Assembly: GCF_006345805.1 (NCBI RefSeq)
Contig: NC_043007.1
Coordinates: 1,736,001-1,800,000, forward strand
Direction of reading: 5' to 3'
DNA length: 64,000 bases
Source: Octopus sinensis
Taxonomy: Eukaryota
The notes beneath the pieces are model-generated. The model was not told the DNA's origin. It made no database searches and was given only the letters and a program-made list of their open reading frames with translations. Positions 3,059-39,884 of the stretch are shown here, piece by piece. How positions within the stretch are numbered: the stretch's first letter is position 1; the number at the start of each line of letters is the position of its first letter. A program made the position numbers and the translations under genes.

Positions 3059-3180
3059 CTTCAGTAGATGTGGGGAGAATCCCCGCAAGCTCCGAGGAGC
3101 AAAGTCCACAACAGTAGGTAGAATAAGTCAAAGTGAAAAGCAACACATCTGTGGTCAGAGGTTGGAGTTTGAATCACCCC

Positions 3181-3190
3181 AATAATAACA

Positions 3191-3229
<39 letters not shown>

Positions 3230-3243
3230 TTAATATTAATAAC
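3181..3243. repeat. (TAA)n microsatellite, tail or target of the adjacent LINE
   Basis: Direct reading. Confidence 0.9.
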
Positions 3244-3244
3244 A

Positions 3245-3800
3245 ATTTCTTTTTTTAGTCATAGGGTCATAGATGGGGAGAGGGCAAGTCAAGGACAGAC
3301 GACAATTCCTGTGGGGATTCACATAAAGGGTGTCAGAAAACAAATGAAAATGACGGTGAAATGCAATAAAAGTATTCGTAGTGTACAAAGTATGTGATAA
3401 GATGAATGATGCAGTTTTTCTAACAAGGGCCAATGAAGAAACCCCACAGATTCAGGATTCCCTTGAACACCAAATGTATGAACCCCTCTCATGCTCGCCA
3501 ATCTATTGGTGCATACTTCTGTAGAGCTATTCACCCTAACCATTTATGTTACTCTTACCCATCTTTGCACAAATTCACTGCGGGGTAGCACTTCCATCTC
3601 CGCCCTCAATTTACTTTCCAAGTGGACCTTAAAAAAAGTTAGGACTTGACTGAAGAGGAAGGTGTCTTTCCTCAACCCTTTCAGTCTTGTCCACCACACA
3701 ACTTCTTTCATTGAGGCCATTAGACAGAGGGACACAATTTGCCCTGCCTTGTTGAAGATGGGTGGTGGCATGACCCTCACAATAGATTCAGCCACATCTT
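3245..3800 (-). mobile_element. Tx1/L1-clade LINE, 5'-truncated ORF2 C-terminus plus 3' UTR
   Basis: Translation MKEVVWWTRLKG...FFKVHLESKLRAEMEVLPRSEFVQRWV resembles the Tx1/L1 ORF2 end; related 3' ends near 19 kb. Confidence 0.65.
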
Positions 3801-12540: not shown

Positions 12541-13143
12541 ACTGAGAAGGAAAGGAATAAAGATTGAATAAGGTTAAGAATTTCGTTTTACTCTGAAATA
12601 TTAACATTTTGAAGCATGTTTTCAGCTCAAATTTCCGAAAGTACCAATTAATTTTAGTTATCTGCCAACTTTACTTATAGTTATCTATAAGCTTTGTATC
12701 TCTAAGATATCTCCGTAAGATAACTTTGGTTATGATCTAAAGTTATGAATCAGTTTCGGCATCGAAATATCCTTAACATAACTTTCGTTATATACTATCA
12801 TATATATATATAAGCTGTTTCCTATCGACAGCCGTGGGGTAACCCTTGTTATCTAGAGATCAGATTCTTATCACAGGTATTTTACCTTTTTTTTTATCTT
12901 ATAATTTATCGTTTAATCAGGGGATGCAGAACAGCTCTTATGACCTCTTTAAGGGTTTACATGGCTCCGACAGGATGAAGGGGAAAAGTTATCTTCACAC
13001 CTGATATTCTTGATTAAACAACAAACTTCTTACGCAAACTTTCGCTATACATCTGTAAAACAGTAAACTTCAAACACAAAGTGTATAGTTTTCTCTACAC
13101 TTTCATCCTTATCATCGCATCACAGCACATTCTCTCTCTCCCC

Positions 13144-13243
13144 NNNNNNNNNNNNNNNNNNNNNNNNNNNNNNNNNNNNNNNNNNNNNNNNNNNNNNNNN
13201 NNNNNNNNNNNNNNNNNNNNNNNNNNNNNNNNNNNNNNNNNNN
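13144..13243. other. Assembly gap (100 N)
   Basis: Run of N. Confidence 1.
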
Positions 13244-14820: not shown

Positions 14821-15574
14821 TATGAGCGTGTGTTGTTTATTAATTGAAATTCAAAATACGAGGCTAAGATCCATTCACGTATCTTTTTTTTCTCTCTTCC
14901 CTCCAAGCAAGCACTTCTACAAATTGAATTTCAATCCGATCAAGTTGGCGGCTTTTATTTGCTATTTTAATCATTAAAATATTTACCCAATTCTTCTTCT
15001 AACTTCGCTCTGTTTAAATTCCTTCCACGCACTTTGCTCTTTCGCCAAAGCAAATTCTTTTGTTTACAATTAGCAAAAACAATATCCACCTACACACAGA
15101 CACACACACACACACACACACTGCATATGTATGTGTATGTATTTGTATGTACGAAGGTTTGTACTTATGTAGGTGTACGTGTGTATACAGGTGCGTATGC
15201 ATCCGTGTGTATGTATGTCCATACGTCTGTTTCTGCGTATGTATGCGTGTGTGTATATATGTTTTCGTGCATGCGTGCACGTTTGTGTGTATTCAGGCAT
15301 TCCCGCTCGTCAGTATGCATGCGTATGGGTATATGTATGTGTATGTGTAAGCTGTATTTGGACTTTGTGGTTCTGAAGCCGCTCACTCACAGATTCCGAA
15401 GGTTTTTTTTAAAGTTCCGGGTAACTAAAGACGTGTATAAGTATATCGGAATTGATTGTTGAGTCCGTGCCGGCGCACGAAACTCCCGGACCTTGAGTCA
15501 CTCTGTTACTTCTGCTAAATACATGTGTGTGTGTATGTGCATGTGGATATATATATATGTGTGTGTGTGTGTTC

Positions 15575-15977
15575 TTTATTCTTTTATTTGTTTCAGTCAT
15601 TTGATTGCGGTCATGCTGGAGCACCGCCTTTAGTCGAACAACTCGATCCCCAGGACTTTTTCATTGTAAGCCTAGCACTTATTCTATCGGTCTCTTATGC
15701 CGAACCGCTAAGTTACGGGGACGTAAACACACCAACATCGGTTGTCAAGCTATGGCGGAGGAACAGACACGCACACACACACACACAACACACACACACG
15801 TGTGTGTATGTATACGACAGGCTTCTTTCAGTTTCCGACTGCCAAATCCACTCACAAGGCTTTGGTCGACCCGAGGCTATACTAAGAAGGCACTTTCGCA
15901 AGGTGCCACGCTGTGGGACCGAACCCGGAACCATGTAGTTGGTAAGCAAGCTACATACCACACAGCCACTCCTGCGT
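15575..15977 (-). mobile_element. SINE family A, CpG-retaining copy
   Basis: Full head and tail on the minus strand. Confidence 0.9.
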
Positions 15978-16251
15978 CTATGTGTATAAAATGTTTGTGT
16001 ATGTGTGTGTATATGTATATATGTGTGTTTGTGTGCATATATGTATGCGTTTGCACTTTATTTCTTAGCATGTAAGCCATGCATATAATAAAAAAGTATT
16101 AAACGTGAACATAAAGATAGAAGCAAAAATAAGATTAAGAACGAAAGAAAATAGAATTAATTTTTATAATTATAATTAATTTACTTGTTGTTTGTTTTGT
16201 CAGGTAATTCTTTACAATCCCGTTTTGTCTATATATATATATATATATATA

Positions 16252-16479
16252 CTCTTTTATTCTTTTACTTGTTCAGTCATTTGACTGCGGCCATGATGGA
16301 GCACCGCCGTTAGTCGAGCAAATCGACCCCGGGACTATTCTTTGTAAGCCCAGTACTTTTTTCTATCGGTCTCTTTTGGCGAACGCTAAGTGGACGGGGG
16401 ACGTAAGCACACCAGCATCGGTTGTCAAGCGATGCTAGGAGGACAACACAGACACACACACACACACCACACATATATA

Positions 16480-16549
<70 letters not shown>

Positions 16550-16709
16550 TACGACAGGCTTCTTTCAGTTTCCGTCTACCAAATCCACTCACAAGGCATT
16601 GGTCGGCCCGGGCTATAGCAGAAGACACTCGCCCAAGATGCCACGCAGTGGGACTGAACTCGGAACCATGTGGTTGGTTAGCAAGCTACTTACCACACAG
16701 CCACTCCTA
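16252..16709 (-). mobile_element. SINE family A
   Basis: Full head and tail on the minus strand, internal (TA)n. Confidence 0.9.
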
Positions 16710-16730
16710 TATATATATATATATATAATA

Positions 16731-17098
16731 TCTATATAAACGGCAGTTTGTCTGTGCGTTTTCTGTGTGTCTGTTTTCTCGTACCCTCTCTGACCACGGC
16801 TTTCAACCGATTCTGATGAAACTGACACACACATAGCTCAATGTCATAATTCAAAACTAACGCAGCGAAAAATTTTGAAAAGTTCCCCCAGTTCTGAAAA
16901 AAATCGATAAATTCGACATGGGTCGAGAATCAGAAACCCAACCACAGACGTCTAGGGGACGCAACTCCACCTTTTTTAACTCTCAAAAAAATTTACCATA
17001 ATTTTTTCCCATTTTTTGCTATTTTTGGCTATAACTCTCTAAAAATGCTTATAGTTATTTCCCTTACAAACCTGAGCAACGCCGGGCGATACTGCTAG
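16731..17098 (+). mobile_element. Non-autonomous Helitron
   Basis: 5' TC start (a|tctatataa), subterminal hairpin cctgagcaacgccggg, 3' CTAG|t. Confidence 0.85.
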
Positions 17099-22243: not shown

Positions 22244-22859
22244 AGCAGTAGACCCATGTATACAAACATTCGCACGCTGCAACCAACACGTGCGCGCGCA
22301 CCTTGTCGACGAACAGTGATAATTATCGTTAGCATAGTTAAACTAATTTTCTTCTTTCTCCTCGATAATGACTGACAGTGACTTCGAAGTGTCGCCGGTT
22401 GTGTCGCACTCGGAAAAACTGACAATTAGATCGTGAAGAGCAAAACAAAATTTGGAAAAATGTGAAGAACAGCCAAGATTCTTAAAGGAAACGAAAGTAT
22501 AAAAGTAGGCTGTCGTTCGCTTCGCAAACCACGTGTTCTTGAGTTCGGTCTCATTGCGCGGCACCCCTGAGCAATGTTTTCTACTACAGCCCAATTCCTG
22601 AGAAACGGAAGATATGTGAAAGCCCATGCCACTCTCACCCCATCGCCTCGTAGCGGTGTTGCTTTGTTTTCGTCCCCGTAACCTAAAGTTCGGTACAAAA
22701 GAACGATAGAATGAGCACCTGAGCTCCCCTCTTTAAAAAAAAAAAATTAATAAAAACGATGCCAGTAGTTGATCCGATTTGTTTGAATTAAGGCGGTGCA
22801 CCAGCATGGCCGCAGCCCAATCGCAGAGATGAGTAGAAAAAAAATAAAATTGTATAGGC

Positions 22860-23335
22860 ACCAGCATACCTACGTGGCACGGAGATTACTTCCTGCTTCC
22901 CAGCCACATCGTGGCCCCTTGGGCAAGTGTCCTCTAATATAGCCCCGGGCCGGCCAAAGCCTTGTACGTTGATTTGGTAGACAGAAACTGAAAGAAACTC
23001 TTCGGTACCGGGTTCAGTCCCACTGCATGGCACCTTGGGCAAGTGTCTTTTAATATAGCCTTGGGCCGACCAAATCCTTGTGATTGGATTTGGTAGATGG
23101 AAACTGGAAGAAGCCCGTCGTACATATGTGTGTGTGTGTGCCTATGTTTGTCCCCCACCCCACCATCGCTTGACAATCAATGCTGGTGTGTTTACGTCCC
23201 CGTAACTTAGCGGTTCGGCAAAAGTGACCGATAGAATAAGTACTAGGCTTACAAAGAATAAGTCCTGGGTTCGATTTGTTCGACTAAAGGTGGTACTCCA
23301 GTATGACCGCAGTCAAATGACTGAAACAAAGAAAG
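22860..23335 (+). mobile_element. SINE family A with duplicated 5' half
   Basis: ccttgggcaagtgtc...gatttggtaga occurs twice before one 3' half. Confidence 0.8.
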
Positions 23336-26755: not shown

Positions 26756-27068
26756 GGTCACTGAATGATAATAGCCACGCTGAAAACCGAAGACATCTAC
26801 TGAGTGATTAAAAAAAGTTTGAGTTTGTTTTGTTTCTTTATTTTTTTAGGGGTGGGGGTTCTTTTTCTAAATTGAATTTAATTATATCTCAGATATTTTT
26901 GTAGAAAAAATAAATAAAACAAAACTAAAAAGAAAACGTTTAATATACTTACGTCCCGACATGAAATTTGATCAGAATTGTAACTTCATTTTCATTTCTT
27001 AAAAACTATGCAATTTCTACAGATCACCGATATAACATACACGAAATTCGCTAGACTATATTTGTTAT

Positions 27069-27386
<318 letters not shown>

Positions 27387-27719
27387 CTGCTGTCTTGATT
27401 CTATCTGTTTTATGATATAATTAATTAAACATACGCGCAGACGTGGCTGTGTGGTATGTAGCTTGCTTACGAACCACATGGTTCCGGGTTCTGTCTTACG
27501 GGAAAAAAAAATTCTGTAACTCTGAGGTCCATACCAACATCATTGGGCGTATCTGTTACAAGCTATGACCCTAACAAACATCATACAGTTCTTAGAAGTG
27601 TAGTATATTTTGAGCTACATTGGTAGCAACATGGACTTTTTCCATCTTCCTGCTCTATTAAAGAATTTAAGTAAAATTATATTAATGTGTCCAACTAATT
27701 AAAAACGATATATTTATTT

Positions 27720-28612: not shown

Positions 28613-29400
28613 TTTGTCTCTCCCTTTCTATCTATCTCCCTCCGTCTCTCTCCCTCTCCCCCTCTCTCTCGAGTCGAATTAAAATCCCCGCACGGCCTAT
28701 CTTTGGTGCTAGACTTATTAAAATACGTTGAGTGAAAATAAACATCGCAGGTACTTTGTGCCCCGGGCAGAAGTCACTCTGACGTTTTCCAAACTCTTCC
28801 GAATACACAGCTACGTCGGGGACATCACGACGGATTCGGAGGAGCTTTGAAAACATTGATGACAATCTCCAAGCATCTGTCTGCAACCACTGAGCTCTTT
28901 GATGTTTTTGAGAGAACCAGTTGGTCGCTTAACCCTGCTTGAATTAATAGGCTAATTCTCCCTCAGGCCACAGTCTGTCATCTTAAGAACGAAGTACACA
29001 CGTTGGATAATCTAGGCTGACACACATATACACCTCACTCGCACACACTCAAGCACATGCCGATTTCCACACACACACACACACACGCGCGCGTGCGCGG
29101 CGTGTGCGTCCTTTGAACCTGAAAGTTGTTTGAAGTTTGTTGTGTTAGAAAAACTGTTACACGCCTTCAAATGACCGAAAACGATATAGATACATTTTAT
29201 GGCAATTTACGCGTATAATATACATACATACACACACACACATGTATATATGTATGTATATATAGATATATAGATATATAGATATATATAGGATACATAT
29301 ATCTATATATATATATGCACACAAATACACGCACATATATTTACATTTGTATATGCGTGTGTGTATATGAGCATCTATCTATTTATCTATCTGTATATAT

Positions 29401-29444
<44 letters not shown>

Positions 29445-29620
29445 GTTTATATATTTGTTGTGCAAGATTTTTTATGTGAAGTCGTGTGTTGAAACAGATA
29501 TTGTTATATTTCGGAATGGTTATTTTGCCAGTTTAGCCAATAAAAACACACGCACTATATATTTGGTGTTACTTTGCTTTAATTTTAATTTATTTTTTAC
29601 ATTAATCTTAATCTTATTTC

Positions 29621-29664
29621 GGCCAGAGTTCTTTCGTCACACTCCTGTGACCGCATCAGTGGCC
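29621..29664 (-). ncRNA. Type I hammerhead fold with variant core
   Basis: GGCCA-CUGAUGC-G-GUCACA(GGAG)UGUGAC-GAAA-G(AA)C-UC^UGGCC; stems I and II perfect. Confidence 0.7.
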
Positions 29665-29797
29665 CTTTGTTTTCTTCTTTCTTATTTGTGTCTCTCCTTA
29701 CTAACCGTCAGCCATTTTGTAAAGAGACCGATAAAATAAGTACAAAATGGCTGATGGGTAGTAAGAAGAGACACAAATAAGAAAGAAGAAAACAAAG

Positions 29798-29841
29798 GAC
29801 CACTGTTGTGGTCACAGGAGTGTGACGAAAGAACTCTGGCC
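29798..29841 (+). ncRNA. Second hammerhead copy with mutated core
   Basis: GACCA-CUGUUGU-G-GUCACA(GGAG)UGUGAC-GAAA-GAAC-UC^UGGCC. Confidence 0.55.
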
Positions 29842-30150
29842 GAAATAAGATTAAGATTAATGTAAAAAATAAATAACACTGAAGCAAAGTAACACCAAAT
29901 ATATAGTGCGTGTGTTTTTATTGGCTAAACTGACCATTCCGAAATATAACAATATATATATATATATGCACATATATATATATGCACATATATACACGCC
30001 TTGATAGATCGTTACCTCCTACACACATTTTTTTCTCTCCTTGTTTTTTTCTGTGTATCTTTCTGTCGAAGATATACTAATACATTTGTTTGTTTGTACT
30101 CCACCTGTCTTCGTCTTTTGTTTATTTTCGTAAACCTTCCCGTTATATAT

Positions 30151-30288
30151 AAGGTCCCAAAAGTTCGTAGAAAGTCTTGGAAAATAATGGTCTTTATTTT
30201 GAGGAATAATTTTTGTTGTTTTTGTTAGTACTTGGCGAGTAAAAATTCAATTTTCGCAAGTGTTTACGAACTTTTGGGACAACCTAAT
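30151..30288. mobile_element. Tc1/mariner-type MITE
   Basis: gtcccaaaagttcgta / tacgaacttttgggac TIRs in TA context. Confidence 0.8.
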
Positions 30289-34394: not shown

Positions 34395-35422
34395 CAATGT
34401 TTTCAAGAAGTTTTCTTCATTCTTGACACAACCAAGTAGATTTTGTGTGACTGAAACCCAAGTGTCTTTTTGCTCAGCTGAAAGCAATTTTTGGCACAAA
34501 CATGGCAGACACGAGTCTCAAACCCAAATCTTCAGTGATAATGGACTGAACTGAACCATAACTAATCTACACATTTTCTGATAACTCACGGATGGTGATT
34601 CAACGATTTCCCCTCATGGCTGCATTCACATACTCTCTTTTCTCTCTTTTACTTGTTTCAGTCATTTGACTGCGGCCATGCTGGGGCACCGCCTTTAGCT
34701 GAGCAAATCGACCCCAGGACTTATTCTTTGTAAGCCTAGTACTTATTCTATCAGTCTCTTTTGCCGAACTGCTAAGTGACAGCGACGTAAACACACCAGC
34801 ATCGGTTATCAAGCAATGCTAGGGGGACAAACACAAACACACACACACACACATTTATATATATATACATATATACGACGGGCTTCTTTCAGTTTCCATC
34901 TACCAAATCCACTCACAAGGCTTTGGTCGGCCCGAGGCTGTAGTAGAAGACACTTGCCCAAGATGCCACGCAGTGGGACTGAACCCGGAACCATGTGGTT
35001 GGTAAGTAAGCTACTTACCATACAGCCACTCCTCTGCAATATTTTTCTCAGTTCTACTGGTTGTGGGTCTCCCAGAAAGTTCGTCAATATCAACATTTTT
35101 TAAGCCATCTTGAAAACATCTGAACCACTCGTACACTTGTGTGCGGCTCATACACTCCTCTCCATACACTTTCTGCAACTTTGCATAGGCCTCTGAGCAG
35201 GTGTCACCATAACAACTTTCCCTTTTTTGGTCAATGTTACAATCACATGCTACACACCTTCCTTTGAAGCACTGCTGTAAACAGTGGGAATGAGCTAGAA
35301 TGTTAAAACTTAGAGTGCAGGAACAGCAGAGTTCAAGGTCAATCTTTGCCAACTGGCTTCACTCTGCGTGCTTTAACTTTGTTACTATGGCAACAGTCCT
35401 GATACATATTGATCAGACCGTG
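34395..35422 (-). pseudogene. Mariner transposase N-terminal remnant with 5' TIR, split by a SINE
   Basis: KLQKVYGEECMSRTQVYEWF..F..G...D...SGRP (HTH) resumes beyond the SINE as ITIRELSE..ISYGSVQSIITEDLGLRLVSAMFVPK; TA|cacggtctgatcaa terminus; stops and a frameshift. Confidence 0.9.
34631..35033 (-). mobile_element. SINE family A nested in the mariner remnant
   Basis: Full-length copy interrupting the transposase frame. Confidence 0.92.
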
Positions 35423-35544: not shown

Positions 35545-36158
35545 CCTGCACGGAAGCCAGTCAGCTGCTCTGGCAACAATCACGCTCAGATGGTGCTTGT
35601 AGAACTCCACTGGCACGGATGCCAGTCATCAAATTTGATTTCGATTTCACTTGCCCCAACAGGTCTTCACAAGCAGAGTTTAGTGTCCAATGAAGGAAAG
35701 GTACGCATAAGCAGGCTGATTACACACCCCTGGCATAGGCCACGAGGTTATGGTCTCACTTGGCTTGCCGGGTCTTCTCAAGCACAGCATATTTCCAAAG
35801 CTCTCGGTCACTAGTCATTGCCTCGGTGAGGCCTAATGTTTGAAGGTCATGTTTCACCACCTCATCCCAGGCCTTCTTGGGTCTACCTCTTCCACAGATT
35901 CCGTCAGCCGCTAGGGTGTGGCACTTTTTCACACAGCTAACCTCATCCATTCTCGCCACATGACCATACCAGTGCAGTTGTCTCTTTTGCACACCACATC
36001 TGATGCTTCTTAGGTCCAACTTTTCTCTCAAGGTACTTACACTCTGTTGAGTATGCACACTGACATTACACATCCATTGGATCATACTGGCTTCATTCCT
36101 TGCAAGCTTATGCATGTCCTCAGCAGTCACAACCTATGTTTCACTGCCACGTAGCATG
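35545..36158 (-). mobile_element. RTE-clade LINE, ORF C-terminus plus 3' UTR part
   Basis: RQLHWYGHVARMDE...GRGRPKKAWDEVVKHDL...DRELW is the typical RTE C-terminal signature. Confidence 0.9.
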
Positions 36159-38483: not shown

Positions 38484-38843
38484 TACTCTTTTACTCTTTT
38501 ACATGTTTTAGTCATTTGACTGCGGCCATACTGGAGCACCGCCTTTAGTCGAGCAACTCAACCCCGGGACTTATTCTTTTGTAAGCCCAGTACTTATTCT
38601 ATCGGGCTCTTTTGCCGAACCGCTAAGTAACGGAGACATAAACACACAAACACACACACGCATATATATATATACATATATACGACGGGCTTCTTTCAGT
38701 TTCCATCTACCAAATCCACTCACAAGGCTTTGGTTGGCCCGAGGCTATAGCAGAAGACACTTGCCAAAGGTACCACACAGTGGGACTGAACCCGGAACCA
38801 TGTGGTTGGTAAGCAAGCTACTTACCACACAGCCACTCCTGCG
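38484..38843 (-). mobile_element. SINE family A; inverted relative to a 3' half at 38000-38197
   Basis: Direct similarity to other copies. Confidence 0.88.
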
Positions 38844-39884
38844 CACAAGCGCACACTCACACATATATATAAGTGTGCACCCATACAGATTCGTGCATGC
38901 ATGCAGATACATGCACATGCATACATTGGCCATTATAGATGCAGATGCAATTGCACTAGCATTCGCCACACACAGGTGAATAGTCTCTTTCATACCTACA
39001 CAAGCAGTCACGGACTTTCTCTCTGTCTTTCTCCCTTTCTTTTTTCACTCTCTCTCTCTCTCTCTCTTTTAAACACATGTACTTTCTCTGTCACATATAC
39101 GCAGTCAGCTGTACATGTATAATTCACACGCACACATTCTCTTTTATACACATTTGCATGCATTCATACAGACAAACACACACACACACACACGCATGCA
39201 CACACACACACACATATATGCACACTCACACACACACACACTCCCTCCCTCCCTTTCTTTCTCTCTTTCTGTTGTTTGTGCCTCTCCCCCTTTCTCTCTC
39301 CTTCTCCATCAAAGACAATGCACAGAGCACCCAACCATTTATAATGATTCCATTCTGACATTGGTGTCACTTCCCCACCACGACGACGACCACCACCACC
39401 ACCATGACCACCACTGCCACATTGGTGCTCCACGGACTCTCCTCACTTATCTCTCTTTAAATACTTCAATGAGATTTCCAAATGGCATATTTATATTCTT
39501 ATTTGCCATGCCATTTCTCTCTTCAAGAAATTCCCTTTTGCAAACATTTCCTCTGAGAATTCACCGAATTAATTTTAGCTGAATAATTCACTCCTTCCTC
39601 CTCTCTCCTTCCTCTTCACTCCTTCCTCTTCACTCATAACCATTCAAAATGAAGTCACTCGAAACTTAGAAACTTTAAGAGTAACTACTTAACGACAGTA
39701 ACAAATGAGGACGCCTTCATTGTGGTTACCTGACCTGCTAGACATAGCAGTCAAGTCTAGTTCCTCGAGTCACATTTCCTATTGTATTCAATAATCTTCA
39801 AATACATTATGGATACATTATGGCTGCTAAATGTGGGGTGGTGAGGAAAGGGCACCGTTGGAATGTCTTCAGCGACAGATCTGC

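What the first reader, a model, noticed from the sequence alone, without database searches (positions are those of the whole stretch)
29498..29955. 458-bp palindrome with two outward-facing hammerheads
Two ~220-bp arms are joined head-to-head, each with an HHR read away from the centre, and the whole lies within TA microsatellite. A read-through transcript would form a long dsRNA hairpin (ADAR/Dicer substrate) that sequesters the ribozyme. Arm divergence, including a 10-nt indel and core mutations in one copy, argues against an assembly artefact. It matches PLE inverted-end formation but has no ORF.
Basis: partly seen in the sequence, partly recalled or inferred. Interest (0 to 1): 0.72.

Follow-up and report, generated by a model that had tools for sequence, protein, structure and literature searches.

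The report
Head-to-head Penelope retroelement stub
This mirror-image stretch is two cut-down tail ends of a very common Penelope-like jumping gene lying head to head in a TA repeat, most likely made in a single insertion, and both of its hammerhead-like motifs carry changed core letters, so it is an ordinary repeat copy and not a new RNA device.

Summary
The palindrome is real, but it is a standard Penelope-like element (PLE) insertion. Each arm is the 5'-truncated 3' end of a retroelement that has at least 1,780 motif-bearing copies in this 2.7-Gb genome. [quoted passage not shown]

Evidence for one insertion event:
- 33 of 73 assessable loci have the same head-to-head layout, and none is convergent.
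- In 24 of 27 scorable pairs exactly one arm carries a 57-nt "tail". Here it is the left arm, which therefore runs to 29441, not 29498.
- Arm 3' ends abut (TA)n in 63 of 101 arms, against 77 of 1,520 control windows.

These features are in print for PLEs (PMC8557442, PMC3846280, PMC11167929).

The hammerhead motifs have the PLE minimal architecture (PMC4209133). Neither arm has a canonical core: the left has C at position 9, a variant carried by 1,388 of the 1,780 copies, and the right has U6 and U9. Rfam finds no hammerhead.

A read-through RNA is predicted to fold into a roughly 225-bp hairpin. Expression and read support could not be tested. The indel is 8 nt, not 10. The scan noted this same kind of insertion earlier on other DNA of this genome.

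The parts
29245..29454 (.). Imperfect (TA)n microsatellite on the left flank. The pure TA run ends at about 29443 and merges with the end of the left copy's tail.
   Evidence: TRF period 2, 103.5 copies, 69% matches; sequence
29441..29497 (-). 57-nt 'tail' at the 3' end of the left copy. It is absent from the right copy.
   Evidence: Aligns to the long 3' end form of the family. Tail on exactly one arm in 24 of 27 scorable pairs.
29498..29721 (-). Left 5'-truncated PLE 3' end (pseudo-LTR-length stub; reference positions 1756-1978 of copy L031).
   Evidence: 96.5% to reference copy including the tail; 95.1% to L033
29621..29665 (-). Left hammerhead-like motif. Helix I GGCCA/UGGCC (5 bp), box CUGAUGC (C at position 9), extra G, helix II 6 bp with GGAG loop, GAAA, GAAC, UC, then the predicted cut before UGGCC.
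   Evidence: Sequence. The same 34-nt core string occurs 1,388 times in the genome. No Rfam hit.
29721..29955 (+). Right 5'-truncated PLE 3' end (reference positions 1735-1978), short 3' end form. Its first ~20 nt (29722-29740) have no partner and form the hairpin loop. An 8-nt deletion lies after 29932.
   Evidence: BLAST to reference copy 91.8% and 90.0% to L033; alignments
29797..29841 (+). Right hammerhead-like motif with box CUGUUGU (U at positions 6 and 9). Helix I is 3 bp, then a mismatch, then 1 bp. It folds into a competing hairpin.
   Evidence: Sequence. The MFE fold pairs GGACCAC with GUGGUC instead of forming helix II.
29952..29994 (.). (AT)n / (ATATATATATATGCAC)n microsatellite on the right flank
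   Evidence: TRF

Best explanation
The palindrome is two 5'-truncated 3' ends of one Penelope-like retroelement (PLE) family lying head to head in a (TA)n microsatellite, likely produced in a single insertion in which both cut target strands primed reverse transcription.

Shown here:
- Both arms belong to a family with 1,780 or more motif-bearing copies.
- Longer copies carry RT, a CX4CxxC linker, a GIY-YIG endonuclease and a pseudo-LTR.
- Copies are 5'-truncated at variable points.
- Nearly half have an inverted partner abutting their 5' end, with no target DNA between the two.
- Almost always exactly one of the two 3' ends carries a 57-nt tail.
- 3' ends sit in (TA)n.

Inferred, from the published in vitro behaviour of a lizard PLE (PMC11167929):
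- The element's endonuclease cut both strands of a TA repeat.
- Each 3'-OH primed cDNA synthesis at one of two internal start sites near the RNA 3' end, the distal one giving the tail.
- Both cDNAs stopped after about 235-280 nt and were joined at their 5' ends.

The hammerhead-like motifs are passengers of the pseudo-LTR. In this copy both have core changes and are predicted to be inactive. Any read-through RNA would fold into a roughly 225-bp hairpin as a by-product of the layout, not as a designed function.
For: - Family size. 556 candidates for the arm, 46 matches scored. The motif pattern gives 883+897 matches against 0 for the reversed control.
- Coding capacity of longer copies. RVT_1 E 1.2e-4 and GIY-YIG E 1.4e-3. 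The RT part has 315 homologues at E<=1e-5, the best 94% identical. Homologue P0111 has GIY-YIG at 30 bits (cut-off 22.6) at its C-terminus. The EN fragment here aligns to that region at E 5e-30.
- Pseudo-LTR. The 3'-terminal 248 nt recur upstream of the ORFs in L033 at 98%.
- Head-to-head layout. 34 of 76 distinct loci by script, of which one (L063) is a microsatellite false match, giving 33 of 73 assessable. No convergent partner lies within 400 nt. Among the first 100 motif places, 6 close -/+ pairs, 4 same-strand pairs and 0 +/- pairs lie within 5 kb.
- One-sided tail. 24 of 27 scorable pairs, against about 13.5 expected if the arms were independent. The window follows the rule.
- (TA)>=5 after the 3' end. 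63 of 101 arms against 77 of 1,520 control windows. It also lies at the 5' flank of 12 of 38 solo copies.
- Arms of a pair are closer to each other than the median distance to other loci in 14 of 16 pairs.
- Literature. Inverted 5'-truncated copy, one-sided tail and (TA)n bias (PMC8557442, passages). Inverted pLTR with a tail on one of them (PMC3846280, passages). Both strands cleaved and extended, with two RT start sites defining the tail (PMC11167929, main text). Dual min-HHRs on opposite strands 100-700 bp apart (PMC4209133, text).
Against: - The Pfam matches of this element's own RT and EN lie below the curated cut-offs (22.2 against 29.6 bits; 19.3 against 22.6 bits). No RT phylogeny was made, so the PLE clade is unresolved.
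- The window's own arms are no closer to each other (0.047) than to arms elsewhere (median 0.044). For this locus the single-event origin therefore rests on the family-wide rules, not on shared variants.
- The tail is 57 nt, against 30-40 bp in print.
[quoted passage not shown] That does not by itself predict the strict one-tail rule found here.
- No target-site duplication can be read, because both flanks are TA repeat.
Confidence: 0.85

Rival explanations
1. The element and the single event are the same, but the inverted arm arose by snap-back self-priming. The first cDNA folded back on itself and was copied, as proposed for rotifer Penelope elements.
For: In 23 of 33 pairs the BLAST ends of the two arms overlap by 1-18 nt at the junction, meaning short self-complementary junctions. 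Palindromes at inverted junctions and self-priming are discussed in PMC3846280 (passages).
Against: A simple fold-back copies the first arm, so both arms should end alike. Only 3 of 27 scorable pairs do so: 1 with both tails and 2 with both short ends. Arm lengths are usually very unequal, for example reference positions 416 against 1937 in L011.
Confidence: 0.1
2. Two independent insertions of the same family into one TA-repeat hot spot that happen to lie back to back.
For: The family clearly prefers (TA)n. The window's arms are as different from each other as from other copies.
Against: - No TA repeat lies between the arms. The 5' ends abut directly.
- Orientation is strongly one-sided: 33 head-to-head against 0 convergent.
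- The one-tail rule holds in 24 of 27 pairs.
Confidence: 0.03
3. Assembly artefact: a chimeric or fold-back read.
For: PLE tandem and inverted structures are known to trouble assemblies (PMC8557442, passage). No listed public contig bridges the centre.
Against: The arms differ by 10 substitutions, an 8-nt and a 1-nt indel and a 57-nt tail. Fold-back artefacts give near-identical arms. The same layout, with different junctions, occurs at 32 other loci.
Confidence: 0.02
4. A functional hairpin-RNA locus (miRNA, endo-siRNA or ADAR substrate) or a terminal-inverted-repeat DNA transposon.
For: Very stable predicted hairpin, z -39.7. Generic plant miRNA-precursor models align to it, for example MIR7723 at 98 bits.
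Against: - Those scores are far below gathering (98 against 200 bits) and reflect any long hairpin.
- The arm ends are not constant termini. They are variable 5' truncation points of a retroelement.
- There is no sign of conservation beyond neutral decay.
- No transposase is involved.
Confidence: 0.03

Closest known systems
Endonuclease-bearing Penelope-like elements with an inverted 5'-truncated copy, pseudo-LTR and one-sided tail (Craig et al. 2021, PMC8557442; Arkhipova et al. 2013, PMC3846280)
   Same: - RT plus C-terminal GIY-YIG with a CX2-5CxxC-type linker.
- A pseudo-LTR.
- Strong 5' truncation.
- An inverted copy abutting the 5' end.
- A tail on one end only.
- (TA)n insertion bias.
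- A hammerhead motif in the pseudo-LTR.
   Different: - The tail is 57 nt rather than 30-40 bp.
- Here both members of the pair are short stubs (about 224+57 and 235 nt) with no ORF.
- The clade (Neptune/Nematis-like, by the presence of both Zn-finger-like motifs) was not resolved by a tree.
Minimal hammerhead ribozymes of metazoan PLEs (Cervera and de la Pena 2014, PMC4209133)
   Same: - Type-I topology.
- Short helix I.
- Long (6-bp) helix II closed by G10.1-C11.1.
[quoted passage not shown]
- Minimal helix III.
- Location in the pseudo-LTR.
- Pairs on opposite strands 100-700 bp apart were already noted in that paper.
   Different: - The majority form of this family has C, not A, at core position 9. 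Only 166 of 1,780 copies have the canonical box.
- The helix III/loop letters (AGAACU) are not palindromic.
- The window's right copy also has U at position 6.
Poseidon element of Anolis carolinensis studied in vitro (Frangieh et al. 2024, PMC11167929)
   Same: - AT-rich target cleavage.
- Both DNA strands cut and extended.
- Two internal RT start sites whose spacing equals the genomic tail.
- The hammerhead was not needed for insertion in vitro.
   Different: - A different host and clade.
- In vitro, no strand difference in start site was seen. Here the genomic pairs show one tail per pair in 24 of 27.
Animal non-LTR retrozymes (tandem hammerhead repeats giving circular RNAs; bioRxiv 10.64898/2026.07.22.740005, abstract only)
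   Same: Short non-coding units derived from the PLE pseudo-LTR that carry a hammerhead motif.
   Different: Retrozymes are direct tandem repeats with ribozymes on one strand. Here the two motifs are on opposite strands, so no transcript holds both in sense and no unit can be excised.

Membership tests
Penelope-like element (EN+) | Reverse transcriptase and GIY-YIG endonuclease encoded by the same element, with EN C-terminal | tested here: met
   - Longer copies read RT (YVDD; RVT_1 E 1.2e-4, 22.2 bits, below cut-off 29.6), then a CX4CxxC linker, then GIY-YIG (E 1.4e-3, 19.3 bits, below cut-off 22.6).
- Homologue P0111 passes the GIY-YIG cut-off (30 bits) at residues 898-949 of 1,003.
- The EN fragment aligns to P0111 at E 5e-30.
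Penelope-like element (EN+) | Pseudo-LTR: the 3' end repeated upstream of the ORF | tested here: met
   L031 8890-9137 matches L033 (reverse complement) 3135-3382 at 98.0%, upstream of ORFs starting at 3477.
Penelope-like element (EN+) | Inverted 5'-truncated copy directly adjacent at the 5' end | tested here: met
   33 of 73 assessable loci; 0 convergent partners. In the window the junction is at 29721.
Penelope-like element (EN+) | [quoted passage not shown] | tested here: met
   24 of 27 scorable pairs have it on exactly one arm. In the window it is on the left arm only (29441-29497). Its length of 57 nt exceeds the 30-40 bp in print.
Penelope-like element (EN+) | Insertion bias for AT-rich or (TA)n targets | tested here: met
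   63 of 101 arm 3' ends against 77 of 1,520 control windows. 12 of 38 solo copies also have it at the 5' flank.
Penelope-like element (EN+) | RT groups with PLE and telomerase RTs in a phylogeny | not tested
   No tree with reference PLE RTs was built, because no named reference sequences were at hand.
Hammerhead ribozyme (PLE minimal type I) | Core box C3 U4 G5 A6 N7 G8 A9 | tested here: not met
   The window's left arm has CUGAUGC and its right arm CUGUUGU. Family-wide, 1,388 of 1,780 copies have C9 and 166 have the canonical box.
Hammerhead ribozyme (PLE minimal type I) | Core box G12 A13 A14 with A15.1, and cleavage-site U16.1 H17 | tested here: met
   GAAA, then GAAC, then UC, followed by UGGCC, in both arms.
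Hammerhead ribozyme (PLE minimal type I) | [quoted passage not shown] | tested here: met
   GUCACA/UGUGAC (6 bp) with a GGAG loop, preceded by an extra G. These features are listed in PMC4209133 (text).
Hammerhead ribozyme (PLE minimal type I) | Helix I, and a palindromic helix III/loop 3 that allows dimer formation | tested here: inconclusive
   Helix I is 5 bp in the left arm, but 3 bp plus a mismatch plus 1 bp in the right arm and in 46 of the 50 sampled copies with the common GGACCA form. The helix III letters AGAACU are not self-complementary.
Hammerhead ribozyme (PLE minimal type I) | Match to a curated hammerhead covariance model | tested here: not met
   No hammerhead family at gathering in the window, at E<=10 in 29450-30000, or for a canonical-core copy, L035:1380-1680. 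PLE minimal motifs were originally found with descriptors, not such models, so this is weak evidence.
Hammerhead ribozyme (PLE minimal type I) | Self-cleavage | not testable with these tools
   The 5' ends of inverted arms do not pile up at the predicted cut: 2 of 33 lie within 10 nt.
TIR DNA transposon / MITE / foldback element | Constant terminal inverted repeats at the element ends, flanked by a target-site duplication | tested here: not met
   The inner ends vary from locus to locus. The outer ends are retroelement 3' ends of two lengths. The arms match an RT/EN-encoding element.
miRNA precursor families hit by Rfam (MIR7723, MIR5380 and others) | Score at or above the family's gathering threshold | tested here: not met
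   The best is MIR7723 at 98 bits against 200. No match at gathering.

The most novel reading that the evidence does not exclude
The dominant lineage of this octopus-type Penelope element (1,388 of 1,780 motif copies) spread with C in place of the invariant A at hammerhead core position 9. The C9 motif may still self-cleave with help from the element's protein. It would then be a natural hammerhead core variant that current descriptors and Rfam models miss.
Probability: 0.1. Interest if true: 0.5.

Novelty: new member of a known kind. Interest (0 to 1): 0.2.

Why it matters
For this locus, little. It is one decayed copy among thousands, and its layout is the published signature of PLE integration.

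At family level the counts have some use.
- The one-tail-per-pair rule (24 of 27) and the 33:0 orientation bias are clean genomic constraints on how PLEs resolve their two-ended integration. That step is still not worked out in vitro.
- A lineage with a changed core letter (C9) outnumbers the canonical one about 8 to 1. This fits the published view that hammerhead catalysis is not needed for PLE spread.
- Thousands of such palindromes are also a large potential source of long double-stranded RNA in a cephalopod-type genome. That was not tested here.

Tried and rejected
- Rfam, gathering and E<=10. No hammerhead family was found, even for a canonical-core copy. Only generic long-hairpin miRNA models below threshold matched. 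The result is uninformative for PLE minimal motifs.
- Public runs. 24 were listed and no RNA holder was listed.
- Laying contigs at 90% likeness or better (X1, X3, X6). They pile up from the whole repeat family and no piece spans the locus. Raw reads of X21 gave 0 laid, with about 3 in 100 of the run read.
- Laying contigs at 98% or better on 29670-29800 (X1, X3, X4, X6). Only X4 shows depth (120) over 29725-29749. No listed record bridges the centre with 31 nt on both sides.
- Arm-to-arm distance as a test of a single event at this locus. It is not informative here: 0.047 against a median of 0.044.
- Genes around the locus (stop-to-stop ORFs of 110 aa or more). Nothing gene-like lies near 29.5 kb, only repeat-derived frames, so read-through transcription could not be argued from context.
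- Pfam on homologues for PF28514, which the search table lists for many relatives. That model is not in the local copy.
- First pattern search.
- A literature look-up for position-9 mutants. It gave only the statement that single mutants in the CUGA turn have low activity (PMC9901934, passages), which bears on U6 in the right arm. No figure for A9C was seen.

Full report
**What is in the sequence**

Window 29441-29955 holds two copies of the same roughly 225-nt sequence in opposite orientation, meeting at about 29721. The repeat finder reports arms 29579-29721/29741-29883 (143 nt, 93% complementary) and 29529-29597/29864-29932 (69 nt, 91%). A MAFFT alignment of left arm against reverse-complemented right arm has 210 identical columns. 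Mapped onto a family copy, the arms differ at 0.047 of 215 shared positions, plus an 8-nt and a 1-nt indel.

The 8 nt are missing from the right arm, after 29932. All 29 other copies aligned have them, so this is a deletion private to that arm. Both outer ends run into TA-type microsatellite (TRF 29245-29454 and 29952-29994).

**The arms are the 3' end of a retroelement**

The right arm finds 556 candidate places in the window's own genome (2.72 Gb, 13,516 contigs). 46 matches were scored, most at 93-95% identity.

In the fetched loci the similarity continues upstream of the arm for variable distances: to reference positions 416, 638, 662, 981 and so on. This is the pattern of 5' truncation.

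Four loci extended by 9 kb share up to 1.6 kb upstream. They read, in one direction, a reverse transcriptase with YVDD, a CX4CxxC stretch and a GIY-YIG-type endonuclease.
- Pfam gives RVT_1 (E 1.2e-4, 22.2 bits) and GIY-YIG (E 1.4e-3, 19.3 bits), both below the curated cut-offs.
- The RT part has 315 relatives at E<=1e-5. The best are two predicted proteins named as from Octopus vulgaris, at 94% and 93% identity.
- One relative, P0111, carries GIY-YIG above cut-off (30 bits) at its C-terminus.
- The endonuclease fragment of this family aligns to exactly that part at E 5e-30.
- In locus L033 the last 248 nt of the element recur, at 98%, upstream of the ORFs. That is a pseudo-LTR.

Together these are the defining parts of an endonuclease-bearing Penelope-like element (PLE). 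The clade was not resolved by a tree. The presence of both the CX2-5CxxC-type linker and cysteine/histidine residues inside the EN resembles what PMC8557442 describes for Neptune/Nematis rather than Hydra (passages). That is an inference.

**The palindrome is a family habit, not a peculiarity of this locus**

I pooled three samples:
- the 30 best matches to the arm;
- 20 loci in genome order with the canonical-core motif;
- 30 loci in genome order with the majority motif.

I dropped L027, L030, L022 and L056 as duplicates or parts of the same insertion. That left 76 loci.

A script found an inverted copy whose 5' end lies within 60 nt of the 5' end of the central copy in 34 loci. One of these (L063) is a false match in an internal microsatellite, leaving 33. 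Three loci could not be assessed. No locus had a convergent partner within 400 nt of its 3' end. L003, L008 and L009 also show inverted partners, but the script did not count them.

In the first 100 motif places listed on contig 1 there are 6 close -/+ pairs, 4 same-strand pairs and no +/- pair within 5 kb.

The junctions carry no TA repeat. In 23 of 33 pairs the BLAST ends of the arms overlap by 1-18 nt. Independent insertions into TA repeats would leave target DNA between the copies and would show both orientations. The pairs are therefore products of single events.

**The one-sided tail**

Family copies end in two ways. The short form ends in ...AACAATAT followed by the flank. The long form carries 57 further nucleotides.

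In the window the left copy has these 57 nt (29441-29497) and the right copy does not.

Across pairs whose two 3' ends could both be scored:
- 24 of 27 have the tail on exactly one arm;
- 1 has it on both;
- 2 have it on neither;
- 6 further pairs were not scorable.

With a tail frequency of 0.48, independent arms would give about 13.5 one-tailed pairs. Solo copies: 14 with tail, 26 short, 2 unscored.

[quoted passage not shown] 2 legend; PMC3846280), though longer than the 30-40 bp in print.

**Target**

A run of five or more TA units lies within 30 nt after 63 of 101 arm 3' ends. The figure is 77 of 1,520 for control windows taken elsewhere in the same loci. It also lies at the 5' flank of 12 of 38 solo copies, so the repeat was there before insertion. 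A (TA)n preference is in print for PLEs (PMC8557442, passages).

**How it most likely arose**

For a lizard PLE, purified protein cuts AT-rich DNA on both strands and extends both. Reverse transcription starts at two internal sites of the RNA, and the spacing of those sites equals the genomic tail (PMC11167929, main text read).

The simplest reading of the window is one such event in a TA repeat:
- one strand primed at the distal start site, giving the left copy with the tail;
- the other strand primed at the proximal site, giving the right copy;
- both cDNAs were abandoned after about 280 and 235 nt;
- their ends were joined.

Shown here are the layout, the orientation rule, the tail rule and the target. 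Inferred are the two primings and the joining.

The fold-back self-priming idea of PMC3846280 fits the short self-complementary junctions. It predicts like ends on both arms, however, and only 3 of 27 pairs show that.

For this particular locus the arms are no more alike than random family members (0.047 against a median of 0.044). In 14 of 16 pairs overall they are closer.

**The hammerheads**

Read outward, each arm has: helix I, then CUGAUG-N, an extra G, a 6-bp helix II (GUCACA/UGUGAC, loop GGAG) closed by G-C, then GAAA, then GAAC, then UC, then UGGCC.

[quoted passage not shown] That paper also notes pairs of such motifs on opposite strands 100-700 bp apart.

The conserved A at position 9, however, is C in the left arm and U in the right arm. 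The right arm also has U for A6.

Genome-wide, the pattern with four free letters in the first box occurs 1,780 times, and 0 times for the reversed control.
- 1,388 copies have the C9 form.
- 166 copies have the canonical CUGAUGA.

The two forms are real subfamilies, separated by linked differences outside the motif. One example is a G in 17 of 20 against an A in 28 of 30 at a column upstream. Median pairwise distances within the samples are 0.079 for canonical and 0.060 for C9, so the C9 lineage looks somewhat younger and about eight times more prolific.

- A canonical copy folds by itself into helix I plus helix II (-16.3 kcal/mol, z -2.2; 7 of 200 shuffles fold as well).
- The window's right arm prefers a competing hairpin.
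- My slice of the left arm ended before the 3' strand of helix I, so only helix II was seen there.

Rfam finds no hammerhead in the window, in the region at E<=10, or in a canonical copy. That says more about the models than about the motif.

Single mutants in the CUGA turn have low activity in a deep mutational scan (PMC9901934, passages). I saw no figure for A9C. Its effect is inferred from A9 being a conserved core position.

The 5' ends of inverted arms do not gather at the predicted cut: 2 of 33 lie within 10 nt. They gather 35-75 nt (14 of 33) and 212-235 nt (7 of 33) before the short 3' end.

I conclude that the motif is a PLE hammerhead by descent and position. The window's two copies fail the core test and are predicted to be inactive.

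**The hairpin RNA idea**

A transcript through 29441-29960 is predicted to fold into one long stem (-340.1 kcal/mol; shuffles -104.2 +/- 5.9; z -39.7). That stem would indeed lock up both motifs.

This follows from the layout and needs no selection. Whether the locus is transcribed, edited or diced is open:
- no RNA holder was listed;
- no gene-like frame lies nearby.

**Read support**

Contigs of public runs pile up from the whole family at 90% likeness or better. At 98% or better, only one run shows a contig over 29725-29749, and none bridges the centre.

The argument against an artefact therefore rests on the differences between the arms and on the recurrence of the layout at 32 other loci with other junctions.

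**Comparison and verdict**

The object works like, and is a member of, the known class of head-to-head PLE insertions. Every structural feature tested was met, apart from an untested RT phylogeny and sub-threshold Pfam scores of the decayed copies.

As a hammerhead it fails the core-box feature in this copy. It is not a TIR transposon, a retrozyme unit or a miRNA gene.

Earlier notes of this scan describe the same kind of palindrome on other pieces of this genome and reached the same reading (8 notes were shown of 154 that fit the look-up). I used them only as leads to PMC3846280 and to the question of clade.

Novelty is low. The family-level counts (one tail per pair; C9 lineage outnumbering the canonical one) are the only points of some interest.

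Noticed in passing
window 30154-30280: A small element with perfect 16-nt terminal inverted repeats (30154-30169 and 30265-30280, 95 nt apart), flanked by TA-rich sequence. Public contigs pile up over 30002-30270, so it or its surroundings are high-copy. It looks like a MITE.
   Followed up: partly
window 35011-35358 (-): A stop-to-stop frame of 115 aa matches HTH_48, the HTH domain of Mos1 transposase (E 2.2e-8, 34.6 bits, above cut-off). It is a mariner-type transposase fragment. The neighbouring frame 35756-36133 (-) has no Pfam match.
   Followed up: partly
window about 13100-13220: A run of unknown bases (X in three reading frames) inside a long microsatellite-like tract. It is an assembly gap.
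   Followed up: no
window 15519-16075, 16407-16739, 22788-23141, 27051-27539, 38512-38979: Several frames share the same short peptide-like stretch (…GTEPGTMW.VSKL.TTQP…). This points to another interspersed repeat present many times in the window.
   Followed up: no
own genome, family level (L035-L084): About a third of motif-bearing copies (17 of 50) begin within a 35-nt interval, 200-235 nt before the short 3' end and close to the 5' edge of the pseudo-LTR seen in L033. Pseudo-LTR-length stubs are therefore a preferred product, and both arms of the window belong to this class.
   Followed up: partly
L013 (G000:C4:990477-993698): An inverted pair (tail-bearing short arm plus a 225-nt arm) is itself duplicated in tandem, 355 nt apart.
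   Followed up: no
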